The translations under genes were made by a program, and so were the position numbers. A stretch of 64,000 bases of DNA from an uncultured bacterium (lineage in GTDB: Bacteria; Actinomycetota; Acidimicrobiia; Spongiisociales; ZC4RG35). This document shows positions 47,241-58,211 of the stretch, in pieces. The notes beneath the pieces were generated by a model. The model was not told the origin of the DNA. It was given only the letters and a program-made list of their open reading frames with translations, and did no database searches. The stretch lies in contig CAWGTX010000007.1 in assembly GCA_963825585.1 (NCBI GenBank), positions 1,839 through 65,838 of the forward strand. Direction: 5' to 3'. The stretch's first letter is position 1; every line of letters starts with the position of its first letter.

Positions 47241-47320
47241 GCCGTGTGACCTGCCGGACTGCGGTGGTGCCCGACTCTGTGCCGGACACCACCGCGTCCC
47301 CCCCCGGGAAGGAACCGGGC

Positions 47321-48235
47321 TCAGTCCGGCGAACCGGTGTTGGTGAAGGTGAACACCTTGCGATCGCCGTCGCTGGTCTCGATCGTCACATCGAAGGTCT
47401 CGCCGACGGGAGCGCCTTCGAAGAACACCTTCAGGTCCCAGTGACCCGTCTTGCCGACCTCGACCCGGCCGGATCCGTACGGGGAGCCCACCTCGACCAC
47501 GAGCCCGGTGCGGCCGGTCCCGTAGAAGACGTCGTAGGGCGGGTCCTCATCACACGAGCCGTACTTCTGGGCGGCCGAGAAGGCGAGCACAGCCTCTTCG
47601 TCGTCGCCCTTGCCGTCGTCGCCCTTGCCGTCGTCGCCCTTGCCGTCATCACCCTTGCCGTCATCACCCTTGCCTTCATCACCCTTGCCTTCATCATCCT
47701 TCGGCTTCTCGCCCTCGTTGTCGCCGCCTGCCAGCACCACGGTGACCGAGGCCTTGGAGATGTTCCCAGCCGAGTCGATTGCCTTCAGTGTGGCAACGTT
47801 CTGGCCGGGTGAGAGCCACAGAACGATCGACCACGAGCCGTCGTCGGCAACCGTTGCCTCGAACTCGCCCGCGAACACCCGGGCACCGGGCTCGGTGGTC
47901 CCTTCGAACACCACCTCCCTCTGCTCGAACACCTGTCCTTCGGACGGCGACGAGATCACGATCCCGGGGGCGGACGTGTCGACCGGGACCGTGGTCGTGT
48001 TCTTCGGTTCGCTGGTGGTGGTGGTTTCGGGTTTGGTCGTGGTCGTGGTCTCCGGCTTGGTCGTGGTCGTGGTCTCCGGCTTCGTCGTCGAGGTGGTCTC
48101 GGAGACATCGGCCTCCGGCTGCGCCAGGGCCGGTGGCACTGGTTCGTCGTCCAACAGCCCACCGATCTGGGCGGTCGCCATCCCGGCGACAAGCATCACC
48201 GAGAAGCCGGCGAAGAACATCACTGCTCGTCTCAT
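47321..48235 (-). CDS. Exported protein with Thr-rich linker, Ig-like domain, GDDGK repeats and a C-terminal beta domain
   Basis: Signal peptide MRRAVMFFAGFSVMLVAGMATAQ; KPETTTTT repeats; DTSAPGIVISSP..GTTEPGA. Confidence 0.75.
   Translation of the reverse strand: MRRAVMFFAGFSVMLVAGMATAQIGGLLDDEPVPPALAQPEADVSETTSTTKPETTTTTKPETTTTTKPETTTTSEPKNTTTVPVDTSAPGIVISSPSEGQVFEQREVVFEGTTEPGARVFAGEFEATVADDGSWSIVLWLSPGQNVATLKAIDSAGNISKASVTVVLAGGDNEGEKPKDDEGKGDEGKGDDGKGDDGKGDDGKGDDGKGDDEEAVLAFSAAQKYGSCDEDPPYDVFYGTGRTGLVVEVGSPYGSGRVEVGKTGHWDLKVFFEGAPVGETFDVTIETSDGDRKVFTFTNTGSPD
47601..47700 (-). repeat. In-frame 15-bp tandem repeat encoding (GKGDD/E)n
   Basis: About 6-7 copies of TCGTCGCCCTTGCCG / TCATCACCCTTGCCT. 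Confidence 0.9.
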
Positions 48236-48382
48236 CTTCTTCACTCCCTGTTGTTGCGGCACGGTTCGTACCGCGCCTTCCCCCGCCGGGATCCGGTCCT
48301 TCGACCGCGACCCGGGCGCTGATTCACCGCCAGGCCCCGAGCGCCGCCCCAGCGCATCGACACCTGCCATCCACTACCGGCA

Positions 48383-48414
48383 CACTCGTCTGCGGGCGGC
48401 GGACGGTTTACCGG
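48383..48414 (-). promoter_or_regulatory. Candidate ECF-sigma promoter facing the exported-protein gene
   Basis: CCGGTAAACC-N15-ACGAGTG on the minus strand. Confidence 0.65.
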
Positions 48415-48442
48415 TCCGGGAGAAATCATCGAAAAAGCGCTC

Positions 48443-48475
48443 CCGGTAAACCTGGGACGGCCGATGGAACGAGTG
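48443..48475 (+). promoter_or_regulatory. Candidate ECF-sigma autoregulatory promoter
   Basis: CCGGTAAACC-N16-ACGAGTG on the plus strand. Confidence 0.65.
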
Positions 48476-48494
48476 ACACTGAAGACCAAATCAG

Positions 48495-49043
48495 ATGCTC
48501 GATAGCGCACGAAACCAGCGACGTGTTCGCATGACTTCCGAGGAACCGGTGGTGCTGGGGCTCGAATCGTTCGAGTCCTTCTATCGGCGCGAGTTCCGGC
48601 CGATGGTGGCACTCGCCTTCGCCCTCTCGGGGAGCCGTCTGGCCGCCGAAGATCTGGCCCAGGAGGCGATGATGGTTGCGCACCGGCGCTGGGCCGAGGT
48701 TGCCCGGCTCGAGCGGCCCGACGCCTGGGTTCGCCGGGTGGTGTCGAACATGTCGGTGTCGGCATACCGGAAGCGGGCCTCGGAAGCCCGGGCGCTCGCT
48801 CGCCTTGCCGGACGCCGACAAGAGGTGCTGCCTGCCATGGAGCCGGCAGACGACGAATTCTGGAAGGCGGTTCGCGCCCTGCCCACCCGGCAGGCGCAGG
48901 CCTTGGCCCTTCACTATCTCGAGGACCTCCCCGTTGCCGAGATCGCCGAAGTGCTCGACTGCAGCCCTTCGACTGCGAAGGTCCATCTGTTTCGGGGCCG
49001 CAAGAACCTGGCTGCCGCACTTGGCATGGAGGAAGGGCGATGA
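48495..49043 (+). CDS. ECF RNA polymerase sigma-70 factor
   Basis: AEDLAQEA, PDAWVRRVVSN, LPTRQAQALALHYLEDLPVAEIAEVL..STAKVHLFRGR. Confidence 0.95.
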   Translation: MLDSARNQRRVRMTSEEPVVLGLESFESFYRREFRPMVALAFALSGSRLAAEDLAQEAMMVAHRRWAEVARLERPDAWVRRVVSNMSVSAYRKRASEARALARLAGRRQEVLPAMEPADDEFWKAVRALPTRQAQALALHYLEDLPVAEIAEVLDCSPSTAKVHLFRGRKNLAAALGMEEGR

Positions 49044-49978
49044 TCGATCTCGACGCACGGGCGCGGGCTGCGGCCGATGGTCTGAAGGCCTCGGTCGGGT
49101 CGGCGGATCTCAGGCTGGCGTCGGCGCTTCCCGGAACTGTGACGTCATGGCCACCGTGGGCGATGTTCGCGGCGGGGGCTGCCGTGGCCGGTGCCGTCGT
49201 CGTCGCAACCGTTGTGGATGTGCCGGAGATGGAGGAGCCGGTCACGGCCACGACCGTGACCACCACCGTCGCCGAGTCGACCACCACCGTGGATACGGCG
49301 CCCACCAGTGCGGGAACGGTCCCGCCGGCTACCGGTGCGCCTGTCGTCACCGCTCCAGCCACGACGGCGCCCACCCTCGACACCACTCCACCACCGATCA
49401 CCATCACCGATCCGGCCGATGGGAGCGAAACCGACGAGTCCAGGATCACCTTCCGGGGCACCACCGAGCCGGGAGCCAGCGTGTTCGCCGGCGACTTCGA
49501 GGCCACGGTCGCCGACGACGGCTCATGGTCGATCGTGCTGCTGCTGTCGCCTGGTGAGACCACGGCCCGCTTCGTCGCCGTCGATGCCGCAGGGAACGAG
49601 GCGTCGGCGTCAGTCACCGTCACCCTGATCGTCCCCGAACCCGAGACCACCACAACGACGAAACCGAAGGACGAACCCGAGACCACCACGACCACCAAGC
49701 CGGTGGAGGAGGAGGTGGCACCCTTCACCGCCGTCGCCTCCTTCGGGGTCTGCGCCGAGGAACCCCCCTGGGACGTCTACTTCGGCACCGGCGAGCCCGG
49801 GACGGCGGTACAGATCACCTCGCCGTACGGTTTGGGCAGCACGGTGGTCCGCTCCGACGGATCATGGGAGGTCAAGGTGTTCTTCCCCGACGCCCCGATC
49901 GGCAAGTCCTTCGACGTGACCGTGACCGACGAACTCGGCCGCACGAAGGGCTTCGGATTCACCCACACGGAGGCGTAG
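49040..49978 (+). CDS. Putative single-pass anti-sigma factor with an Ig-like ectodomain
   Basis: ATGA overlap with the sigma gene; short cytoplasmic N-terminus, one TM helix, Thr/Pro linker, ectodomain paralogous to 47321..48235. Confidence 0.7.
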   Translation: MIDLDARARAAADGLKASVGSADLRLASALPGTVTSWPPWAMFAAGAAVAGAVVVATVVDVPEMEEPVTATTVTTTVAESTTTVDTAPTSAGTVPPATGAPVVTAPATTAPTLDTTPPPITITDPADGSETDESRITFRGTTEPGASVFAGDFEATVADDGSWSIVLLLSPGETTARFVAVDAAGNEASASVTVTLIVPEPETTTTTKPKDEPETTTTTKPVEEEVAPFTAVASFGVCAEEPPWDVYFGTGEPGTAVQITSPYGLGSTVVRSDGSWEVKVFFPDAPIGKSFDVTVTDELGRTKGFGFTHTEA

Positions 49979-50055
49979 ACCGGCAACTCGACACCGGCGC
50001 CATACGTTGACGGCGCCGCAGGCGGCCGTTCCGGAACCTGTCCCCGACGAGAAGA

Positions 50056-50075
50056 GCCCCCGGCGGACCGGGGGC
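50056..50075. terminator. Hairpin between convergent genes
   Basis: GCCCCCGG-CGGA-CCGGGGGC. Confidence 0.5.
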
Positions 50076-50099
50076 CCTCAGCACTCGGGTGCACGCCGC

Positions 50100-51170
50100 T
50101 CAGCTGGAGGCGACCGCTCCCAGCGCTTCTGCGATGTCGGCCTGGGACAACGGAAGCTCCACCACCTGGTTGCGCTCGGCCGACAGGTCGGCGGCCAGGT
50201 AAACCTCCATCGTCTGGCGGGCCAGCCGGGGCTCCACCATCACGTCACGATCGAAGGCCACCGCCTCGAGGAAGTGGATGGTCTCGCGCTCCATGGGACC
50301 GGCGTAGACGTGATCCACGTACTCGCCGGGCATGGTGGAGAGCGGGAACTGCACACCCTTGTCGACGGTGTTGAAGATGATGTCCTTGTGGGACGCATCC
50401 ATCAGCAGGGCTCCGTCGGTGCCCAGCACCTCGATCCAGGTCGAGGCGAAGTTGGGATAGCCGGGGGGTAGCGACCATCCGCCGCCCACGTTCACCACCA
50501 CGCCGTCATCCATGGTCACCGTGATGTACTGGACATCGGGCACGCCCTGGTCACGACGTGCGCCCCACGCCACCTGGCTGTAGACACGCACCGGGCGGCG
50601 TGGCTCGAGCAACCAGAACGAGAAGTCGAGGTCGTGGGTGGCCTCCATCGCCGCCGGCGACAGCTTGGTGCGGCTGCCGATCTTGGCGCCCAGCGAACGG
50701 GCGATGTGTCGGCTCACCAGCACGCTCACCGGATCACCCAGCGACCCGTCGTTGAGGCTCCGCTTGGCGAGCGCCTGCTTGGCGTTGAACCGCTGCGAAT
50801 AGCCGATCGTGAACTTGAGTCCCTTGGCCTCGGCGATCTCGATCAGCTCGTCGGCCTCTTCCAGGGTGATGGCGATCGGCTTCTCGAGCAGCACGTGCTT
50901 GCCTGCCTCGAGCGCCGCCTTCGTCATCGGGTAGTGGGTGGTCTCGGGGGTGGCCGAGATCATCAACACCTGGATGTCGGGGTTGGTGATGAGCGCCTGC
51001 CAGTCGGTGGTGGCGGTGACCGCACCGGTCATCGCCGCCACCTCGGCCAGTCTGGCCTCGTTGGTTTCGGCGATGTGCAGATCGCCCACGAGTGCGCTGT
51101 TGGCACAGGCCACGGCGCGGATGCCTCCGCACCAGCCGGGACCGATGACGCCTACGTTGAGTGGTTCCAT
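50100..51170 (-). CDS. Gfo/Idh/MocA family oxidoreductase
   Basis: GVIGPGWCG, ISATPETTH, GKHVLLEKP, EATHDLD. Confidence 0.9.
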   Translation of the reverse strand: MEPLNVGVIGPGWCGGIRAVACANSALVGDLHIAETNEARLAEVAAMTGAVTATTDWQALITNPDIQVLMISATPETTHYPMTKAALEAGKHVLLEKPIAITLEEADELIEIAEAKGLKFTIGYSQRFNAKQALAKRSLNDGSLGDPVSVLVSRHIARSLGAKIGSRTKLSPAAMEATHDLDFSFWLLEPRRPVRVYSQVAWGARRDQGVPDVQYITVTMDDGVVVNVGGGWSLPPGYPNFASTWIEVLGTDGALLMDASHKDIIFNTVDKGVQFPLSTMPGEYVDHVYAGPMERETIHFLEAVAFDRDVMVEPRLARQTMEVYLAADLSAERNQVVELPLSQADIAEALGAVASS

Positions 51171-51195
51171 GAGCCGGGTCCTTTCGTCGTCTGGT

Positions 51196-52314
51196 CTAGG
51201 TGAGGTCGGAGGGTTGGATCGGCAGCTTCACCGGGAGACCGGTTCGGGCCGACTTGTCCATCGCCATGGTCAGCAGCAGGTTGCGGTGACCTTCGGCGGC
51301 GGTGGCATGCGGGGTCTTGATGCCGGTGGTGAGCTTGTTGTACCAGGTCAGGGTCTCCTCGCGCATCGGGCCCCACAGCATCCCGTCTGAGAGGTCTCCG
51401 GGCGGATAGCTGCCGATGAAGTCGACGTGCCGGGGCGCCGGCGGCTTGAAGCCCTTGGATGTGTATCCGGCCGGCTGGCCAATCTCCGAGGCCAGGATGA
51501 CGTCGCGGTGGGTGTCCTCGATGTCGATGACGCCCTTGGTGCCGACGATGCCGATCTCGAGGCCGTACACCGCTCCCGGCCACTCGGTGGGCAGTGCCCA
51601 GTTGATGTTCATCGAGAAGATCGTGCCGTCGTGCATCGTGAAGACACCGAACGTGGCGTCCTTGGTGCCGAGCTCGGCCAGCGTCTTGTCGACCGACCGG
51701 GCGTACACCTCGACCGGCTCCTTGCCCTCCAACAGCCACATCGACATGTCGAGGCTGTGGGTGCCCGACACCACCATCGGTGTGAGGTTGCCCCGGTCCT
51801 CGGTTTTGATGAGGGTGGCGATCGGCACCATCCGGTTCATGAACGCCCGGGTGACCACCGAGGTGACCTCACCGATCTGGCCGTCGCGGAGCCGCTGTTT
51901 GACGGTGAGGAACCGGCGACGGAACCGCTGGGTGTAGCCCATGACGGCGTCGATGCCGTTGGCCTCGATGGCGGCGAGCACTTCGGCCGACTCGTGGGGG
52001 TTGGTGGCGAGGGGCTTTTCGATGAAGAGCGGCACACCCCGCTCCACCGACAGCATGATCGGCTCGACGTGTTCGTTCTCGGCGGTGGCGACGATGACCG
52101 CCGTCACCTCCGGACGGGCGAGCAACGTCTTCACATCGGTGGTCACGAAGTCGGCGTTGACGTCGGCGGCCAGCTTCTGGGCGGTCTCCTCGTGCATGTC
52201 ACACAGGCCGATCCACCCAACGGCCCGGGTCTCCCGAGCGAGCACCGCCCGGATGCGCCCAATGGTGCCGCACCCGATGATGGCGAGTCCAATGGGTTCA
52301 GACATGTCCGTCAC
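51196..52314 (-). CDS. Gfo/Idh/MocA family oxidoreductase
   Basis: IIGCGTIG, LFIEKP, GYTQRF, SGTHSLD. Confidence 0.9.
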   Translation of the reverse strand: MTDMSEPIGLAIIGCGTIGRIRAVLARETRAVGWIGLCDMHEETAQKLAADVNADFVTTDVKTLLARPEVTAVIVATAENEHVEPIMLSVERGVPLFIEKPLATNPHESAEVLAAIEANGIDAVMGYTQRFRRRFLTVKQRLRDGQIGEVTSVVTRAFMNRMVPIATLIKTEDRGNLTPMVVSGTHSLDMSMWLLEGKEPVEVYARSVDKTLAELGTKDATFGVFTMHDGTIFSMNINWALPTEWPGAVYGLEIGIVGTKGVIDIEDTHRDVILASEIGQPAGYTSKGFKPPAPRHVDFIGSYPPGDLSDGMLWGPMREETLTWYNKLTTGIKTPHATAAEGHRNLLLTMAMDKSARTGLPVKLPIQPSDLT

Positions 52315-53375
52315 TCCAATCCGAGCAGTCGGGCGGCGTTACCGCTGGTGATGGCGGCCAGCGCCGCCAGGTCGTCTCCCACCGCACGGGAGATGAGGCC
52401 GACCGGGTCCACCTCGCCCATGTCATAGGGGTAGTCGGTGCCGAGCACGATGCGCTCTGCGCCGTACTTCTGGATCAGGAACGACAGCTGGTCCTCGGCG
52501 AACACCATCGAGTCGAGGTAGAACTGCTTCATGTACTCGCTGGGCGGCTTGGGCAGCCCTTCGCGTACGTCCGCCCGGGCGTGATAGGCGTGATCCATGC
52601 GAGCGGCGTAGGCGGGGAGGTATCCGCCACCATGCACCAGCACGATCTTGATGTCGGGATGCCGCTCCATGACACCGTTGAAGATCAGGTGACCGGCGGC
52701 GAGTGTCGCTTCGATGGGATGGCCGAACACGTTGATCATGTAGTGGTGGCCGAGACGCGCCTGGTTGTCGTGGCCGTTGGAGTGGATCACCACGACCGCA
52801 CCCAGCCGCTCGACCTCGTCCCAGAACGGCTCGAGACGCGGGGCGGAGAGCTCTTCGTCCTCGACCCGGGTGGCGACCTGGATGCCGGGGAACCCGAGGT
52901 CGGTGACGCAGCGCCGCAGCTCGGCGATGGCCATCTCGGTGTTCTGGAGCGGCATGTTGCCCATGCCCATCAACCGGTCCGGTGCGGCGGCCACAAGGTT
53001 GGCGAGGTCGTCGTTCATGCTGGGGAAGACGTCGGCGGCGACGTCATCGGCCGCCCAGTAGTACATCTGCGGGGGGAAGTGGGCGACGCACTGGATGTCC
53101 ACGCCCATCTTGTCCATGTCGCCGAGGCGAACGTCCAGCGACTCCATCTGGGGCCGAATCGACGCCATGTGCTTCTTGTTCACCTCGCGGGTGAGGTCAC
53201 TTCCGATGGTGAGCGACACCTTGCCGCGGCGATCCGCCTCGGCGTGCATCCGCTCCATCACCGGCTTGCTCTCCCAATGGCAATGAAGGTCGACGACACG
53301 ACCGGTCTTGCCGTTCCGGGCGCCGGAGCCTCCCCCGGCGGGCATGGCAGCCCGGTTGACACATGAGATGAACAA
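52311..53375 (-). CDS. Amidohydrolase_2 family protein (ACMSD-like)
   Basis: AGGAGG RBS then TTG; VDLHCH, MPLQN, FGHPIEAT, VHGGGYLP, LGTDYPYDMG. Confidence 0.9.
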   Translation of the reverse strand: MFISCVNRAAMPAGGGSGARNGKTGRVVDLHCHWESKPVMERMHAEADRRGKVSLTIGSDLTREVNKKHMASIRPQMESLDVRLGDMDKMGVDIQCVAHFPPQMYYWAADDVAADVFPSMNDDLANLVAAAPDRLMGMGNMPLQNTEMAIAELRRCVTDLGFPGIQVATRVEDEELSAPRLEPFWDEVERLGAVVVIHSNGHDNQARLGHHYMINVFGHPIEATLAAGHLIFNGVMERHPDIKIVLVHGGGYLPAYAARMDHAYHARADVREGLPKPPSEYMKQFYLDSMVFAEDQLSFLIQKYGAERIVLGTDYPYDMGEVDPVGLISRAVGDDLAALAAITSGNAARLLGLE

Positions 53376-53402
53376 ACTCAGTCCTCCTGAACTCAACGCT
53401 CG

Positions 53403-53417
53403 ATCCTGCAGGATATA
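53403..53417 (+). promoter_or_regulatory. Candidate operator ATCCTGCAGGATATA
   Basis: Perfect palindromic core ATCCTGCAGGAT. Confidence 0.75.
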
Positions 53418-53447
53418 TGTTATCGGGCGGGAGCGTCGGGGCGAAGC

Positions 53448-54341
53448 TCAGGTTGCGGGGACGATGGTGGGGACGTCTCCGGTGTCCGGGCCGGGACCCC
53501 AGGCGCCGATCTCATCGGCAACGTCGACATCGGCGTTCATGAGGATCTCGACCGCCCAGGCGTTGAACAGGTCGGGTCCCTGGCTCTCCACCCCATAGAT
53601 CAGGACCTCCTCGCGTACCGAGTCGGCCGAAGGGGCGTCACGCTCGGTGACCTTGGCGACGAAGATGGCACCGTCGCCGGCCGGTCTGGCATAGGACACT
53701 CCGACCTCGCCATCGAGTGCCACCGGCGCCAGTGCCTGACCGTGATCGATGGGCGAGGCACACCCCATGTCGAGTCGCGCCGTACGGTCCGGGTAGACAT
53801 CGAAGATGGCGTCGAGGTCTTCGCCGGCGTCAACCCGTGCCTGGATGTCGGGTACCAGCTCGGCGTCGGCCAGGTTCAGGACCACCATGCACACCCGCGA
53901 GTTCACCGAGAGGAATCCCCGGTACGCCTCGTCGAAGTCGAACCCGTGACCGTCGGAACGGACGAGCTTCTCTTCGAGCTCGCTTCGGATCACATCGAGT
54001 TCGGCTTCGAGCATGATCCGGTCACGGGTGACGCCCCGCTCCTGGAGCACCGCATCGATGTCCTCACCCAGCCCCCGAGTCCGATTGTCGAAGGCCTCGG
54101 TGAGCTCGGCCTCGGGGACGGCATACTGGAAGTCGGCCTGCGCCCCGGCGGTGAGCAGCCGGTGGAGCACGAGCAGGTAAAGGCTCGATGCCCGCTCCTC
54201 GACCACCGTCGAGTCACCGGCGGCGTTGAGAGCGCTCAGCTCATCGGCCGACACATCGACACCGTCGACCGTTGCCACAACCCCGGGAGCGGACGTACAG
54301 GCGGCGAGCAGCAGCATCAGGGCGACGATCGAAGATCTCAT
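53448..54341 (-). CDS. Lipoprotein, SurA/PrsA foldase-like
   Basis: Lipobox LLAAC; VVATVDGVDVS; helical body; C-terminal ADVDV..IGAW. Confidence 0.55.
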   Translation of the reverse strand: MRSSIVALMLLLAACTSAPGVVATVDGVDVSADELSALNAAGDSTVVEERASSLYLLVLHRLLTAGAQADFQYAVPEAELTEAFDNRTRGLGEDIDAVLQERGVTRDRIMLEAELDVIRSELEEKLVRSDGHGFDFDEAYRGFLSVNSRVCMVVLNLADAELVPDIQARVDAGEDLDAIFDVYPDRTARLDMGCASPIDHGQALAPVALDGEVGVSYARPAGDGAIFVAKVTERDAPSADSVREEVLIYGVESQGPDLFNAWAVEILMNADVDVADEIGAWGPGPDTGDVPTIVPAT

Positions 54342-54563
54342 GGATCGCCGATGGTATCGACCGAGACCGACTGTGCACTCGCTCCTCTGGTTCCGGGCAC
54401 TCAACGAGACCGAGCTGACAGGGACCGCCGACCAGACCTGTCCGGGGATGGTCAACACGTCGACAGGCCAGGACCCGGACTCCGGTCCTGTTGACCCGTA
54501 GACCCGTGGACCTGTCGACCGCTCTGCGAGTGGATCCACTGCCCCATCCCCAGCTGGTCGACC

Positions 54564-55082
54564 TCAACAGGCGTCGCAGGCGCCCATGATGAACCCGAGC
54601 ATGGTGTAGTACCCGACGGTGGCTGCGAGTTCGACCACCCCACCGTCGCCGAGCAGGTCCTTTGCCCGGGCGAACGTCGCGTCGGACACGGTTGCCGTCC
54701 CGCTCAGCTCGTTGACGAAGTCCATGAGCGTGGCTTCGGCATCGGTCAGCACCACCGAGCTGCCCTTCTCGAGATAGTCCATCACCTCGGGCCTGACGCC
54801 GGCCTTGCGGGCGAGAGGAGCGTGACTGTCCCATTCGAAGGCACACCCGAGGGCGATGGCGGCGGTCACGATCACCAGCTCCCGATCGTGATCCGAGAGC
54901 GACGACTCGTAGCGGATCTTGCCGCCGAGCTCCGCCATCGGCTGGGCGATACCGGGTGCGTGCAACATCACCTCGTAGGGGCGGATCATCGAGCCGCGGC
55001 TCTCCACCACCCAGTTGAAGGTGGCCCGCTGGTCCTCGGTCATGTCGTCGGTCAGCTCTGTGAACAAGCGGATCCGTGCCAT
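54564..55082 (-). CDS. Carboxymuconolactone decarboxylase/AhpD family protein
   Basis: PYEVMLHAP, IRYESSL...RELVI...FEWDSH...ARKAGV, VVELAATVGYY. Confidence 0.85.
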   Translation of the reverse strand: MARIRLFTELTDDMTEDQRATFNWVVESRGSMIRPYEVMLHAPGIAQPMAELGGKIRYESSLSDHDRELVIVTAAIALGCAFEWDSHAPLARKAGVRPEVMDYLEKGSSVVLTDAEATLMDFVNELSGTATVSDATFARAKDLLGDGGVVELAATVGYYTMLGFIMGACDAC

Positions 55083-55083
55083 C

Positions 55084-56145
55084 TCAGCCTCCGATTCGGA
55101 ATAGACGATGCGCGTTGCCGCCCACGATCAGATCGCGGTCGGTCTCCGTCAGGCGGGTCTCGGCGACCATCGCCAGCGGATCGGTCAACCCCATGTCGAA
55201 GGGGTAGTCGGTGCCCAGGAGCACCCGATCAGCACCATAGTTCGCCACGAGCTGTTCGATCATGCCCGGGTCGAAGACGGTGATGTCGTAGTAGAGCTGC
55301 TTGAGGTACTCCGACGGGGGACGGTCGATGTGCTGACGCAGCTCGGGCCGGTGCTTGAAGGCGTGGTCGGTCCGGGCCGAGTAGAAGGTCAGGTACCCGC
55401 CACCGTGCACCACCAGCATCTGAAGGCGCGGGTGTCGCTCGAACACGCCGCTCAGAATCATCCGGGTCACCGTCAACGTCGACGACAACGGCATGCCGAT
55501 CACATTCACCAGGTAGTAATCGGTGAGGCGTTCCGCCTGGGTGAAGCCGGCCGGGTGCAGGATGATCACCAGCCCCAACTCCTCGAGCACCTCCCAAACG
55601 GGTTCGAACCGGGTGTCGTCGAGGTCGAGCCCGTTGATGTCGGCGCCCATGTAGACGCCCGGGAACCGGTACTCAGCAGCCAGTCGACGGGCTTCGACCA
55701 CGGCCGCCTCGGGATGGTTGAACGGGAGCGTCCCGATCCCCACCAACCGGGCCGGGTCGAATCCGGCGAACTCGGCGATCCTCTCGTTCTGGAGTGCTGC
55801 CACCCTGGGCGAGAGCTGGGCGTCGGCCCAGTAGAAGTAGTGGAAGGGGGACAGACCCACCAGCTGGCAGTCGAGACCGAGGGCATCCATGTCTGCCAGT
55901 CGGGTTTCCGGATCGGTGTACTTGGCCGCCGTCAGCTTGTAGAACTCGGCGTTGAGTTCCTTGGTCATCGGCGACGAGAAGAACGTCCGAGGATCCATCT
56001 CCGGCTTGAAGTGGGGCGCCGTGAGCTCTGCCGACTCGGGGACGAGCATGTGGGCGTGCACGTCGACGGTCCTCACCGGCGGCTTGGGTACCGACGAAGG
56101 CCCCCACCGCTCGGCCCATCCCTGGGGTGTGGTCAGATCTGCCAT
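55084..56145 (-). CDS. Amidohydrolase_2 family protein (ACMSD-like)
   Basis: VDVHAH, ILHP, IGMPLSST, VHGGGY, LGTDYPFDMG. Confidence 0.9.
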   Translation of the reverse strand: MADLTTPQGWAERWGPSSVPKPPVRTVDVHAHMLVPESAELTAPHFKPEMDPRTFFSSPMTKELNAEFYKLTAAKYTDPETRLADMDALGLDCQLVGLSPFHYFYWADAQLSPRVAALQNERIAEFAGFDPARLVGIGTLPFNHPEAAVVEARRLAAEYRFPGVYMGADINGLDLDDTRFEPVWEVLEELGLVIILHPAGFTQAERLTDYYLVNVIGMPLSSTLTVTRMILSGVFERHPRLQMLVVHGGGYLTFYSARTDHAFKHRPELRQHIDRPPSEYLKQLYYDITVFDPGMIEQLVANYGADRVLLGTDYPFDMGLTDPLAMVAETRLTETDRDLIVGGNAHRLFRIGG

Positions 56146-56146
56146 G

Positions 56147-57037
56147 TCACTCCTCCGGTACCCGCCCGATCCCCGCCCGACGTCGTATGACCTCGATGGC
56201 CGAGGAGTTGTCCTTGTCGGCCAGACCCCGCGTCTCGCCCTCGTCGAGCGCCGCCTCGACCAACCGGATGTGATCGGCGGGCGCACCCAGTCCCACGGCC
56301 TGTTCCAGGATGAGCTTGGAGTCCTTGTGACTCTGACGCAGACGGGCGTTGGGGCGCTCGTGGTCTCCCGCCACCATGCGATCGCCCCACAGATCCATCG
56401 CCTTCGAATAGGCGGCACTGTCACGCAACACCGCCAGCGTCGACTCGAGACCGAGCCCGGCCATCTCGGCCACCACGAGCCCTTCGGCCAGCGACGCCCG
56501 GTTGACGGCGAGCACGTGGTTGACGATCAGTTTCATGCGCGCCCCGGAGCCCACCGGTCCGACGTGGTGGTGGGACCTCCCCAGCGCCTCCATGACCGGT
56601 ATCGCCTGGCGGTAGGCGTCTACCGATCCGCCGAGCATCATCACCAGACCACCCTGCTCTGCCACGGCGGCGTTTCCACTCACCGTCATGTCGGCGTATC
56701 CGATCCCCAACGCCGCCAGTCCTTCGGCGGTGGCCATGGAATCCTCGGGCCGCCCGGTGGTGGCGTCGAGGACGAGCAGGGGCCGGTGCGAGGACGAGGC
56801 AACACCGTTCGAACCGAGGCACACCTCGCGGGCGATGTCGGATGTGAGCAGCGACAACAGCGCTATCTCGCACCCCGTCACCGCCTCTGCCGGTGACTCC
56901 GCCGGTATCCCACCCATCTCCTGGAACGCAGCCATCGCATGCGAGGAGATGTCGAACCCCCGCACCTCGAAGCCCGCATCGATCAGCCGCCGAGCCAGTC
57001 GCGAGCCCATGATCCCGAGACCGATGACGGCAATCAT
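56147..57037 (-). CDS. NAD(P)-dependent beta-hydroxyacid dehydrogenase, paralog of 6591..7484
   Basis: VIGLGIMG, DMTVSGN, GSGARMKLIVN, AAYSKAMDLWG. Confidence 0.9.
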   Translation of the reverse strand: MIAVIGLGIMGSRLARRLIDAGFEVRGFDISSHAMAAFQEMGGIPAESPAEAVTGCEIALLSLLTSDIAREVCLGSNGVASSSHRPLLVLDATTGRPEDSMATAEGLAALGIGYADMTVSGNAAVAEQGGLVMMLGGSVDAYRQAIPVMEALGRSHHHVGPVGSGARMKLIVNHVLAVNRASLAEGLVVAEMAGLGLESTLAVLRDSAAYSKAMDLWGDRMVAGDHERPNARLRQSHKDSKLILEQAVGLGAPADHIRLVEAALDEGETRGLADKDNSSAIEVIRRRAGIGRVPEE

Positions 57038-57066
57038 CGCTGGGACCCCTGGAAGTGAAGCCCGGT

Positions 57067-57309
57067 AAGAACGTAGAACGTAGAACGTAGAACGTACCGC
57101 TCCCCTCCCGGCAAGTTCGTTCGGGGTCGGACGTTCTGCGTCGAACCGTGTCGCCACCAGGTCCGTCACTATTGGGTACGCCTCTTCTGCTGCGCAGTTC
57201 ATGAGAACGACCCCCCGTGAGAACGATCACCGCGCACCATCGCAACGTCAGCCTGACGACGTGCTGACAGCACGAGGTTCGATACGTTGTACGTTCTACG
57301 TTCTACGTT
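57067..57309. repeat. Inverted AGAACGT heptamer arrays bracketing about 185 bp of non-coding DNA
   Basis: (AGAACGT)x4 at ~57068-57095; TACGTTGTACGTTCTACGTTCTACGTT at 57283-57309. Confidence 0.8.
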
Positions 57310-57338
57310 GAACCGCCCAACCACCGGAAAGCCCGACA

Positions 57339-58211
57339 TCAATCGAACCGGTAGAACGCGCTCGGATTGTCCACGAAGATCGCTTGCCTGATCGCCGGGT
57401 CCGGTGCCCACAGGGCCATCTGCTCGATACAGTCGGCGTCGTTGGGCTGGGCGTTGAACTTGTTGGGGTGCGGCCAGTCGCTGCCCCAGAACAGGTGGTC
57501 GGAGTTGGCTTCGATGAGGGCGTGGGCCAGCGGGACGATGTCGGGCCACGGCGGCCGATCGCCGACCCGCAGACGGTTGGGACCCGACAACTTCACCCAG
57601 GTGTTGCCCTCCTTCACGAGGTCGACGAGGACCTGGAACGGCGGGAAACCGACGCCTTCGGCGGCGGGCATGTAGGCGAAGTGTCCGATGGTCACCGGCA
57701 CGGGGAGTGAGCGGAACAGCGGAGCGAGCTCGGGAAGCGCCTCACCCATGAACAGGAACTCGAGATGCCATCCAAGCTCAACGATGCGGTCGGCGAGCAC
57801 CGGAACGTCGTCCATGGAGATGGGCATGCCGCCCTTGTTGTCGAGGTTGAGCCTCACACCTCGCACGCCGATGCGATCCATGTCGGCCAGCTCATCGTCG
57901 GTCACCGACATGTCGAGCGCCACCACCGCCCGTGCCCGGTCGGGGATCTCGGCCATGGCGTCGAGGATGGCGGAGTTGTCGGTCCCGTACACCGAGGGCT
58001 GGGTGAACACCACCCGCTCGATGCCGAGCTGTGAATGCATGTGGAGCATGTCGGCCAGCGTCGAGTCGGGCGGGTTGTAGCCACGATCGGCCGACAGGGG
58101 GTATCCGGTCACGAAGACGTGGGTGTGCGTGTCGACCGCCCCGTCGGGGAGCTCCAGCGTCGACTTCCGCGGATTGCGGTCAGGCGGAAGGCAGGTGGGG
58201 ATGTCGCTCAT
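57339..58211 (-). CDS. Amidohydrolase, LigI/2-pyrone-4,6-dicarboxylate lactonase-like
   Basis: LPDGAVDTHTHVF, TQPSVYGTDN, GVRGVRLN, WVKLSG, WGSDWPHP. Confidence 0.85.
   Translation of the reverse strand: MSDIPTCLPPDRNPRKSTLELPDGAVDTHTHVFVTGYPLSADRGYNPPDSTLADMLHMHSQLGIERVVFTQPSVYGTDNSAILDAMAEIPDRARAVVALDMSVTDDELADMDRIGVRGVRLNLDNKGGMPISMDDVPVLADRIVELGWHLEFLFMGEALPELAPLFRSLPVPVTIGHFAYMPAAEGVGFPPFQVLVDLVKEGNTWVKLSGPNRLRVGDRPPWPDIVPLAHALIEANSDHLFWGSDWPHPNKFNAQPNDADCIEQMALWAPDPAIRQAIFVDNPSAFYRFD

What the first reader, a model, noticed from the sequence alone, without database searches (positions are those of the whole stretch)
47321..49978. ECF sigma/anti-sigma pair with a divergent exported paralog of the anti-sigma ectodomain and twin promoters
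Seen: the membrane protein downstream of the sigma gene and the divergent signal-peptide protein share near-identical segments. Examples are GTTEPGA(R/S)VFAG(E/D)FEATVADDGSWSIVL and GSCDEDPPYDVFYGTG versus GVCAEEPPWDVYFGTG, plus SPYG and W(D/E)xKVFF. The intergenic region holds two outward-facing copies of CCGGTAAACC-N15/16-ACGAGTG (48383-48414 minus, 48443-48475 plus), shaped like ECF -35/-10 elements. Inference: the sigma transcribes itself and a free copy of its sensor domain, which could act as decoy, ligand shuttle or homotypic partner in a feedback loop.
Basis: partly seen in the sequence, partly recalled or inferred. Interest (0 to 1): 0.7.

Follow-up and report, generated by a model that had tools for sequence, protein, structure and literature searches.

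The report
Anti-sigma sensor with cysteine-paired secreted twin
In many uncultured Acidimicrobiia, a sigma factor likely switches on only its own operon and one secreted protein that copies the outer domains of its likely membrane inhibitor, and because the two proteins always keep or lose the same cysteine together, the secreted copy likely docks on the sensor through a disulfide bond so that the cell would monitor its own product.

Summary
Observation confirmed and extended. An ECF sigma gene is followed by a one-helix membrane protein (A). A divergent signal-peptide protein (B) repeats A's two Ig-like outer domains (42% identity). The twin motif is RTAAACC-N16/17-CG(A/T)GT. It lies upstream of 116 of 117 sigma genes and 102 of 116 B genes in relatives, also when B is unlinked. 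This genome has only these two strong sites, so the predicted regulon is sigma-A plus B. The family occurs in 143 of 399 genomes of the order. Adjacency is kept in only 11 of 22 sigma-bearing relatives. A and B are old, separate lineages. New here: one cysteine in the terminal domain is present in both partners (84 pairs) or absent from both (6 pairs, 5 lineages), never in one alone. This suggests A-B disulfide pairing or a shared ligand. B persists without the motif in genomes where the sigma was not found, so it is probably not just a decoy. Binding was not tested. The scan has noted the same sensor-plus-secreted-twin design before on other DNA (Clostridia, sulfur oxidisers). Verdict: new variant of a known kind.

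The parts
47321..48235 (-). Gene B: secreted paralog of the A ectodomain, 304 aa. Signal peptide, Thr/Lys/Pro/Glu-rich linker, Ig domain, acidic repeat linker, terminal Ig-like domain.
48170..48235 (-). Predicted signal peptide of B (residues 1-22, A-x-A site). The -3 Ala is nearly invariant in 56 aligned B proteins. Judged by sequence pattern; no predictor was run.
47732..47983 (-). B Ig domain (PF09136 Glucodextran_B, 36.2 bits, cut-off 27)
47336..47590 (-). B terminal domain (CTD), no Pfam match; carries the protein's only cysteine, Cys228 (codon 47552-47554)
48384..48411 (-). Predicted promoter of B: -35 GTAAACC (48405-48411), 16-nt spacer, -10 CGAGT (48384-48388)
48446..48474 (+). Predicted promoter of the sigma-A operon: -35 GTAAACC (48446-48452), 17-nt spacer, -10 CGAGT (48470-48474)
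48495..49043 (+). ECF sigma factor, SigE(Streptomyces)-like. The start may be the ATG at 48531: in G002 and G003 the first ATG lies 1 nt after the -10 element.
49040..49978 (+). Gene A: putative anti-sigma, 312 aa. N-terminal helix (residues 4-21), one membrane helix, Thr/Pro-rich linker, Ig domain, linker, CTD.
49160..49222 (+). Predicted membrane helix of A (about residues 41-61), rich in Ala/Gly/Val
   Evidence: hydropathy
49376..49633 (+). A Ig domain (PF09136, 43.2 bits; best structural match glucodextranase 1ulv, Z 12.3, rmsd 1.8, 83 aligned)
49715..49972 (+). A terminal domain (CTD): predicted Ig-like beta-sandwich (mean pLDDT 95.9); carries the protein's only cysteine, Cys238 (codon 49751-49753)
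47261..47295 (-). Strong hairpin after the B stop codon (-32.2 kcal/mol), no U-run; possible terminator
50053..50078 (+). Hairpin after the A stop codon (-19.2 kcal/mol), no U-run; possible terminator shared with the convergent oxidoreductase gene

Best explanation
The ECF sigma likely transcribes just two units, its own operon with the likely anti-sigma A and the secreted protein B, and A likely senses B directly, its terminal Ig-like domain pairing with the same domain of B through a predicted Cys238-Cys228 disulfide. In this model B is the output, a cell-surface protein with a role of its own. While enough B is at the surface, A would be paired and stable and would hold the sigma at the membrane. 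When B is lost, damaged or its thiol is altered, unpaired A would be cut (the genome encodes site-2 proteases). Released sigma would then make more B and more A, closing a negative feedback loop. Shown: the anatomy, the motif distribution, the two-site prediction, the cysteine concordance and the separate A and B lineages. Inferred, with my odds: motif is this sigma's promoter ~0.9; A is an anti-sigma ~0.85; A and B touch through the terminal domain and the cysteine ~0.5; pairing represses rather than activates ~0.7; release by proteolysis ~0.7.
For: Promoter: motif upstream of 116 of 117 sigma genes and 102 of 116 B genes; background 1e-4 per 200 nt. Only 2 sites score in the range of true sites in G000 (26.3 and 24.1; next 17.2; true sites 19.9-28.8). 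0 of 12 assessable B genes in genomes without a detected sigma orthologue carry it. Anti-sigma: all 22 genomes with the sigma orthologue among 61 also have the CTD family, and none of the 33 without it has the orthologue. A has a conserved N-terminal helix. A similar N-terminus precedes unrelated ectodomains next to paralogous sigmas (by eye; profile hits for two of them). One genome has sigma and A fused in frame (L106). The ECF39 description lists one-helix putative anti-sigmas in position +1. Pairing: 84 pairs gave 78 both-Cys, 6 neither and 0 discordant; 6 more pairs, all from one genus, were both-Cys. The 6 losses fall in 5 lineages, 4 of which were placed among Cys-bearing kin in the tree. 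In two lineages A and B stay in their own clades, and in one of these different residues replace the cysteine (Ser in A, Gly in B). In B proteins with tandem CTDs the cysteine is mostly in the last repeat only (38 of 43 multi-repeat proteins with a cysteine). Genomes with co-loss keep DsbB or VKOR (5 of 5 testable). A-B identity within a genome exceeds expectation more in the CTD (+0.036) than in the first Ig domain (+0.017). Site-2 protease present.
Against: The cysteine is also kept where the partner was not found: in most B-only genomes and in several A-only ones. So it must have a partner-independent use, such as a homodimer or a ligand. Concordance fits a shared ligand equally well. The G002/G003 loss may be gene conversion (mixed A+B clade, support 0.92). 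Four of the six Cys-less pairs (three lineages) are also unusually divergent overall, so relaxed selection on the whole system may contribute. The P0053/P0211 pair is inferred from identical contig count, contig length and sources, and from sister positions in the tree; it was not read from DNA. Kin are not independent, so the nominal chance figures (1e-5 to 1e-7) overstate. No function of B is known.
Confidence: 0.42

Rival explanations
1. Shared-ligand sensor and effector. A and B do not touch; both bind the same outside ligand (a metal, an electrophile or oxidant, or a surface polymer) using the cysteine. Ligand on A releases the sigma, and B then mops up or presents the ligand. This resembles BlaR1, whose sensor is a beta-lactamase-like fold, and RsgI, whose sensors are carbohydrate-binding modules.
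For: Explains the concordance, the cysteine kept in partner-less genomes, the CTD-biased within-genome similarity, the expansion of repeats in B or A, and B surviving without the sigma. Precedents seen in passages: PMC5957439, PMC12203970.
Against: No ligand-binding family was matched; the best structural matches are generic adhesin and S-layer Ig repeats (Z 9.6 or less). Internal repeats mostly drop the cysteine, which is odd if each repeat adds a binding site. Several single-residue losses in otherwise typical domains would each need a change of ligand.
Confidence: 0.3
2. No functional link at protein level. A senses wall or mechanical stress through its disordered linker and Ig stalk, B is a surface or structural protein that shares ancestry, and the joint cysteine loss comes from occasional gene conversion and relaxed selection.
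For: Conversion signals exist: mixed clades for G002/G003, L102 and L193. Cys-less pairs are often divergent. A-only systems with up to six CTDs exist. A disordered-region sensing model is published for RsgI (PMC9732909, start of abstract in a search listing only).
Against: 0 of 90 pairs are discordant. A and B are otherwise long-separated lineages (101 of 106 A proteins in one B-free clade). In the G061 and P0053/P0211 losses the partners are not more alike than usual (36% and 52-53% against a median of 48%).
Confidence: 0.18
3. The motif is read by another sigma or is an operator, or A is not an anti-sigma but simply a membrane-anchored second copy of B in the same regulon.
For: No binding or transcription data. 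No anti-sigma profile matches A's N-terminus. The same motif precedes a more distant sigma in G012 and G398, so cross-talk between paralogues is possible.
Against: The motif tracks this sigma's presence across genomes. It has ECF -35/-10 geometry close to the CAACC/CGTC reported for ECF39. No sigma-70-type promoter was found in the region. The second SigE-like sigma of G000 has no high-scoring site upstream.
Confidence: 0.1

Closest known systems
ECF39 subgroups with a +1 one-helix putative anti-sigma (Casas-Pastor et al. 2021, PMC7826278; passages and supplement part 12 of 36 read)
   Same: Actinobacterial SigE-like sigma; +1 single-pass membrane protein with a sensing ectodomain; conserved autoregulatory promoter with an AACC core and a CG-starting -10.
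   Different: The promoter is RTAAACC/CG(A/T)GT, not CAACC/CGTC. The ectodomain is two Ig-like domains, not PASTA or WD40. The part read mentions no secreted copy of the ectodomain and no Acidimicrobiia ('Acidimicrobi' had 0 hits in the main text and the held, cut supplement).
Streptomyces coelicolor SigE-CseABC (passages of PMC8999054 and the PMC7826278 supplement)
   Same: Closest named sigma family by profile (TIGR02983, 119 bits); an exported protein modulates the system.
   Different: Controlled by a two-component system and the lipoprotein CseA rather than an anti-sigma. Here the neighbours are AraC and Gfo/Idh/MocA genes, and the predicted regulon is two promoters.
SigI/RsgI of Clostridium thermocellum (passages of PMC12203970)
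   Same: Single-pass anti-sigma whose outer domain is a module type also used by the exported proteins it controls; release by proteolysis.
   Different: SigI is a different sigma type with a carbohydrate ligand and a broad regulon. It has no dedicated full-length secreted copy of the ectodomain and no shared cysteine.
BlaR1/BlaZ of Staphylococcus aureus (passages of PMC5957439)
   Same: The sensor domain is a structural homologue of the effector class and binds the same ligand.
   Different: A repressor/protease system, not a sigma. The sensor resembles class D enzymes rather than being a paralog of its own target.
PilS-PilA product sensing in Pseudomonas aeruginosa (passage of PMC6058289 citing Kilmury and Burrows 2016; the primary paper was not read)
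   Same: Works-like analogue: the regulated surface protein contacts its own sensor to autoregulate its expression.
   Different: A histidine kinase with an intramembrane contact; sensor and product are unrelated proteins.

Membership tests
ECF (group 4) sigma factor | sigma2 and sigma4 domains only, small size | tested here: met
   PF04542 36.9 (cut-off 24), PF08281 67 (25.7), TIGR02937 68.8 (42.9), 182 aa, no sigma3 family hit
NCBIfam TIGR02983 SigE-fam_strep | score above the curated cut-off | tested here: not met
   119.2 bits against 141.55; still by far the best family
ECF39 | assignment by the group's own profile or tree | not testable with these tools
   ECF group profiles are not in the libraries held
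ECF39 | Actinobacterial origin | tested here: met
   Close homologues and loci are mostly labelled Acidimicrobiia or Actinomycetota; a minority of MAG titles name other taxa
ECF39 | +1 one-helix putative anti-sigma, or a linked two-component system | tested here: met
   +1 single-pass protein; no two-component genes among the immediate neighbours
ECF39 | promoter usually CAACC (-35) / CGTC (-10) | tested here: not met
   RTAAACC / CG(A/T)GT. Related but distinct, so filed as ECF39-like and not as a member.
Membrane anti-sigma factor | short cytoplasmic N-terminal domain plus one membrane helix, co-transcribed with the sigma | tested here: met
   Helix 4-21 (pLDDT about 86), hydrophobic segment about 41-61, ATGA overlap
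Membrane anti-sigma factor | binds and inhibits the sigma | not tested
   No experiment and no complex prediction; indirect support from the in-frame fusion in L106
Zinc anti-sigma (ZAS) | HxxxCxxC motif in the cytoplasmic domain (motif recalled) | tested here: not met
   A has a single cysteine, Cys238, in the outer domain
Known Ig-domain families for the CTD | sequence or fold match to a named family | tested here: inconclusive
   No Pfam or NCBIfam hit on the CTD. Atlas best score 0.85. Foldseek had no hit at E<=0.001. VIA best Z 9.6, rmsd 2.4, 89 aligned to adhesin repeat 6xi3, tied with S-layer 7ptp at Z 9.5.

The most novel reading that the evidence does not exclude
A bacterial receptor-and-soluble-twin circuit: an anti-sigma factor reads the level or state of its own secreted product by forming a covalent, tip-to-tip disulfide with a paralog of its own ectodomain. 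The ECF switch then has a one-gene output. It would be a homotypic, disulfide-gated product-inventory sensor, and the best-sampled case of a sensor-plus-secreted-twin design that has arisen repeatedly with different domains.
Probability: 0.35. Interest if true: 0.8.

Novelty: new variant of a known kind. Interest (0 to 1): 0.57.

Why it matters
For most ECF anti-sigma factors the input signal is unknown, and the anti-sigma-type ECF39 subgroups are described only as putative. This system offers a complete, minimal and testable circuit: a sigma, a promoter consensus from 218 sites, a candidate anti-sigma, a single target, and one residue in each partner whose joint gain and loss predicts the contact. 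If the A-B disulfide is real, it adds a mode of envelope signalling, product sensing by a covalent homotypic contact, that recalls receptor/soluble-receptor pairs of animals. The promoter is absent elsewhere in the host genome, so sigma, A and promoter are also a candidate orthogonal switch. Limits: the hosts are known from metagenome assemblies, and B's biological role is unknown.

Tried and rejected
Expression: no RNA holder was listed; this is not evidence either way. Recent duplication in this genome: rejected, since A and B sit with their own classes. The careful Ig tree did not finish and the CTD tree failed; FastTree was used instead. One protein, L127, was mislabelled B and corrected to A from then on. 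Single-domain trees resolve the classes less well (best split misplaces 48 of 228 for Ig, 13 of 228 for CTD, 5 of 228 for both together). Loss of disulfide machinery as cause of the cysteine co-loss: rejected for G002, G003, G061, G295 (DsbB) and G019 (VKOR). Thioester (Cys-Gln): B has an invariant Gln five residues before the cysteine (55 of 55 against 8 of 55 in A), but it persists in Cys-less repeats and co-varies with a Phe/Tyr column, so it is read as structural. Inter-chain covariation: Cys-Cys ranked 6 of 7225 column pairs; the rest is too weak to use with 55 pairs. Larger regulon: none in G000. Extra exact motif hits in relatives were about as frequent as the reversed-pattern control, and most of the 28 loci inspected lay inside ordinary genes. 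Neocarzinostatin-type chromoprotein fold (Foldseek top row, E 1.2e-3): not in the VIA top 50, treated as a generic Ig match. No solved close relative of the sigma (best SigH, E 1.8e-9). PrsW not found in G000 with PF13367. Partner of the Cys-less B of G804: not found in that 66%-complete assembly, so not counted. Rows dropped before the motif count: genes with under 200 nt upstream, L127 and L325 (A proteins), L257, L258 and L285 (start not called); duplicates were collapsed. Literature: no paper on this system among. The library lacks most subscription papers, and the ECF supplement was cut when stored, so group descriptions or tables that I could not see may bear on the novelty claim.
Full report
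Observation. B (47321-48235, minus) and A (49040-49978, plus) align at 42% over 243 columns. The sigma has only regions 2 and 4; its best family is TIGR02983, below cut-off. Homologues are labelled mainly Acidimicrobiia.

Anatomy. The AlphaFold model of A (86 sequences, mean pLDDT 80.8) shows an N-terminal helix (4-21), a low-confidence region containing the hydrophobic segment, a disordered Thr/Pro linker, and two beta-sandwich domains at about 113-198 and 225-311. The first is a PF09136 Ig domain. The second (CTD) has no Pfam match; folded alone it is a confident Ig-like sandwich (pLDDT 95.9) with only generic adhesin and S-layer matches. B has the same two domains behind a signal peptide whose -3 Ala is nearly invariant. 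Each protein has exactly one cysteine, at the equivalent CTD position.

Distribution. The CTD was found in 28 of 61 relatives, 143 of 399 genomes of the order and 7 of 401 sampled across the phylum. Two of the distant hits are sigma-A pairs with Cys-less domains. Among the 61, 21 genomes have a sigma at 200 bits or more and one more has it cut by a contig end. All 22 have the CTD family, and none of the 33 CTD-negative genomes has it (best 171 bits). In 11 of the 22, B is divergent from the sigma as here; in 10 it lies 5-18 kb away or on another contig; in 1 no B was found. So the regulatory link is conserved but the adjacency is not.

Promoter. Footprinting gives RTAAACC-N16/17-CG(A/T)GT, upstream of 116 of 117 distinct sigma genes (the miss is the second piece of a split gene) and 102 of 116 B genes, against 1e-4 per 200 nt in G000 (A-starting variants seen). 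The pattern was derived from these loci, so the count is descriptive. The independent tests are three: unlinked B genes carry it; it is rare genome-wide; and it is absent from 0-of-12-positive B genes in genomes without a detected sigma orthologue. Most of those orphan B genes share another upstream element ending in GATAAT, which resembles a housekeeping -10 (by eye). A weight-matrix scan of G000 finds only the two window sites in the range of true sites. The consensus is related to, but distinct from, the CAACC/CGTC given for ECF39 (PMC7826278 supplement, part 12).

Is A an anti-sigma? This is inferred, not shown. Support: +1 position with overlapping stop and start; short N-terminal helix with conserved L4, D5, A8, R9, A11; one membrane helix; similar N-termini on unrelated ectodomains next to paralogous sigmas; an in-frame sigma-A fusion in one genome, which could also be a stop-loss or assembly error; and the published pattern for ECF39. 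No profile names the domain.

History. On both domains together, 101 of 106 A proteins form a clade without B (228 proteins, FastTree), so the duplication is old. Within-genome A-B identity exceeds expectation by 0.036 in the CTD and 0.017 in the Ig domain (55 dereplicated pairs). Most of the excess is shared with the nearest relative (0.026 and 0.012), so it is lineage-level. Local conversion is likely in a few genomes.

The cysteine. In 84 genomes or contigs with both genes, 78 have the cysteine in both, 6 in neither and 0 in one only; after dereplication at 75% identity the counts are 51, 5 and 0. Six further pairs of one genus are both-Cys. The losses are G002/G003, G061, G295, G019 and the P0053/P0211 contig. 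The last pairing is inferred. The first may be conversion, and G002/G003, G019 and G295 are generally divergent. G061 and P0053/P0211 show no sign of conversion, and P0053/P0211 is not unusually divergent either. Disulfide-forming genes are kept in these genomes. When B carries two or three CTDs the cysteine is usually in the last only (22 '--C' and 16 '-C' against 4 'C-' and 1 'C-C'), which suggests it must sit on a free end. Against a strict A-B-only role: B-only genomes keep the cysteine, and 12 of them have an extra cysteine pair; A-only systems are mixed.

Mechanism. Best reading (0.42): B is the single output, and A monitors it by a homotypic tip contact fixed by a disulfide, with A-A and B-B dimers also possible. 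Unpaired A would be degraded and release the sigma; a site-2 protease is encoded, PrsW was not found. Rivals: a shared ligand bound through the cysteine (0.30); no protein-level link (0.18); wrong sigma or not an anti-sigma (0.10). No binding evidence of any kind was obtained. B's survival in 15 genomes without a detected sigma orthologue, under another promoter, argues that it does something by itself; some of these assemblies are only 81-89% complete.

Comparison and novelty. It works like a standard ECF/anti-sigma switch, with sensor-effector kinship as in RsgI or BlaR1 and product sensing as in PilS-PilA (passages read; also 23, 27, 85). It is ECF39-like but not filed as a member. Eight searches found no description, within the library's limits. 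Earlier unchecked notes of this scan report an anti-sigma with a secreted ectodomain twin in unrelated bacteria with other domains; none matched this sequence. I did not test them. They suggest the design recurs and is not unique to this locus. Verdict: real feature, new variant of a known kind, interest 0.57.

Noticed in passing
L347:2478-3541 and L348:1046-2387 (G012): A more distant sigma (118 bits) carries the same promoter motif, has a +1 membrane protein with an unrelated, Pfam-less ectodomain, and a second motif copy precedes a secreted L,D-transpeptidase-domain protein (PF03734). A sister switch with a cell-wall target.
   Followed up: partly
L344:2988-3721 (G055) and L365 (G132): In two genomes of one genus the motif precedes a DUF1269-family membrane protein (PF06897 confirmed for G055); a possible alternative target in a family where B was not found.
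   Followed up: partly
L328-L333, L336, L337 (family f9): A proteins without the first Ig domain but with 3-6 tandem CTDs; no B was found in these genomes. One (G147) has a cysteine in every repeat.
   Followed up: partly
L106:5485-6885: Sigma and A are in one open frame, while close relatives have them separate; a natural hybrid or a stop-loss.
   Followed up: partly
L057, L059, L061, L389-L396: Orphan B genes share a different upstream element (AGGTCG..CCCAT..GATAAT, by eye) and an extra cysteine pair in the CTD; apparent rewiring after loss of the sigma.
   Followed up: partly
L353 (G040:C112:15000-27000): Tandem cassettes of SigE-like sigma, membrane protein with repeat ectodomain, and small secreted protein; at least two complete, and the search found three sigma hits here.
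   Followed up: no
G000:C6:1213565-1215813: Second SigE-like sigma of this genome (about 50% identical) with a 509-aa membrane protein of unrelated ectodomain; no high-scoring copy of the motif upstream.
   Followed up: partly
window 48236-48378: The predicted 5' leader of B is about 140 nt here and in G001, against roughly 45-60 nt in most relatives; not folded or examined.
   Followed up: no
window 47597-47703 and 47990-48109: 15-nt and 24-nt tandem repeats encode B's acidic and Thr-rich linkers; copy number varies among close relatives.
   Followed up: partly
window 50100-58211: Cluster of Gfo/Idh/MocA oxidoreductases (one confirmed by Pfam) and, by eye, amidohydrolase-like, carboxymuconolactone-decarboxylase-like and dehydrogenase genes; probably aromatic or sugar-acid catabolism, unrelated to the switch.
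   Followed up: no
P0119-P0122: The same Ig domain occurs in other secreted proteins of similar style, followed by a different C-terminal domain (PF01464 transglycosylase SLT listed for P0122).
   Followed up: no
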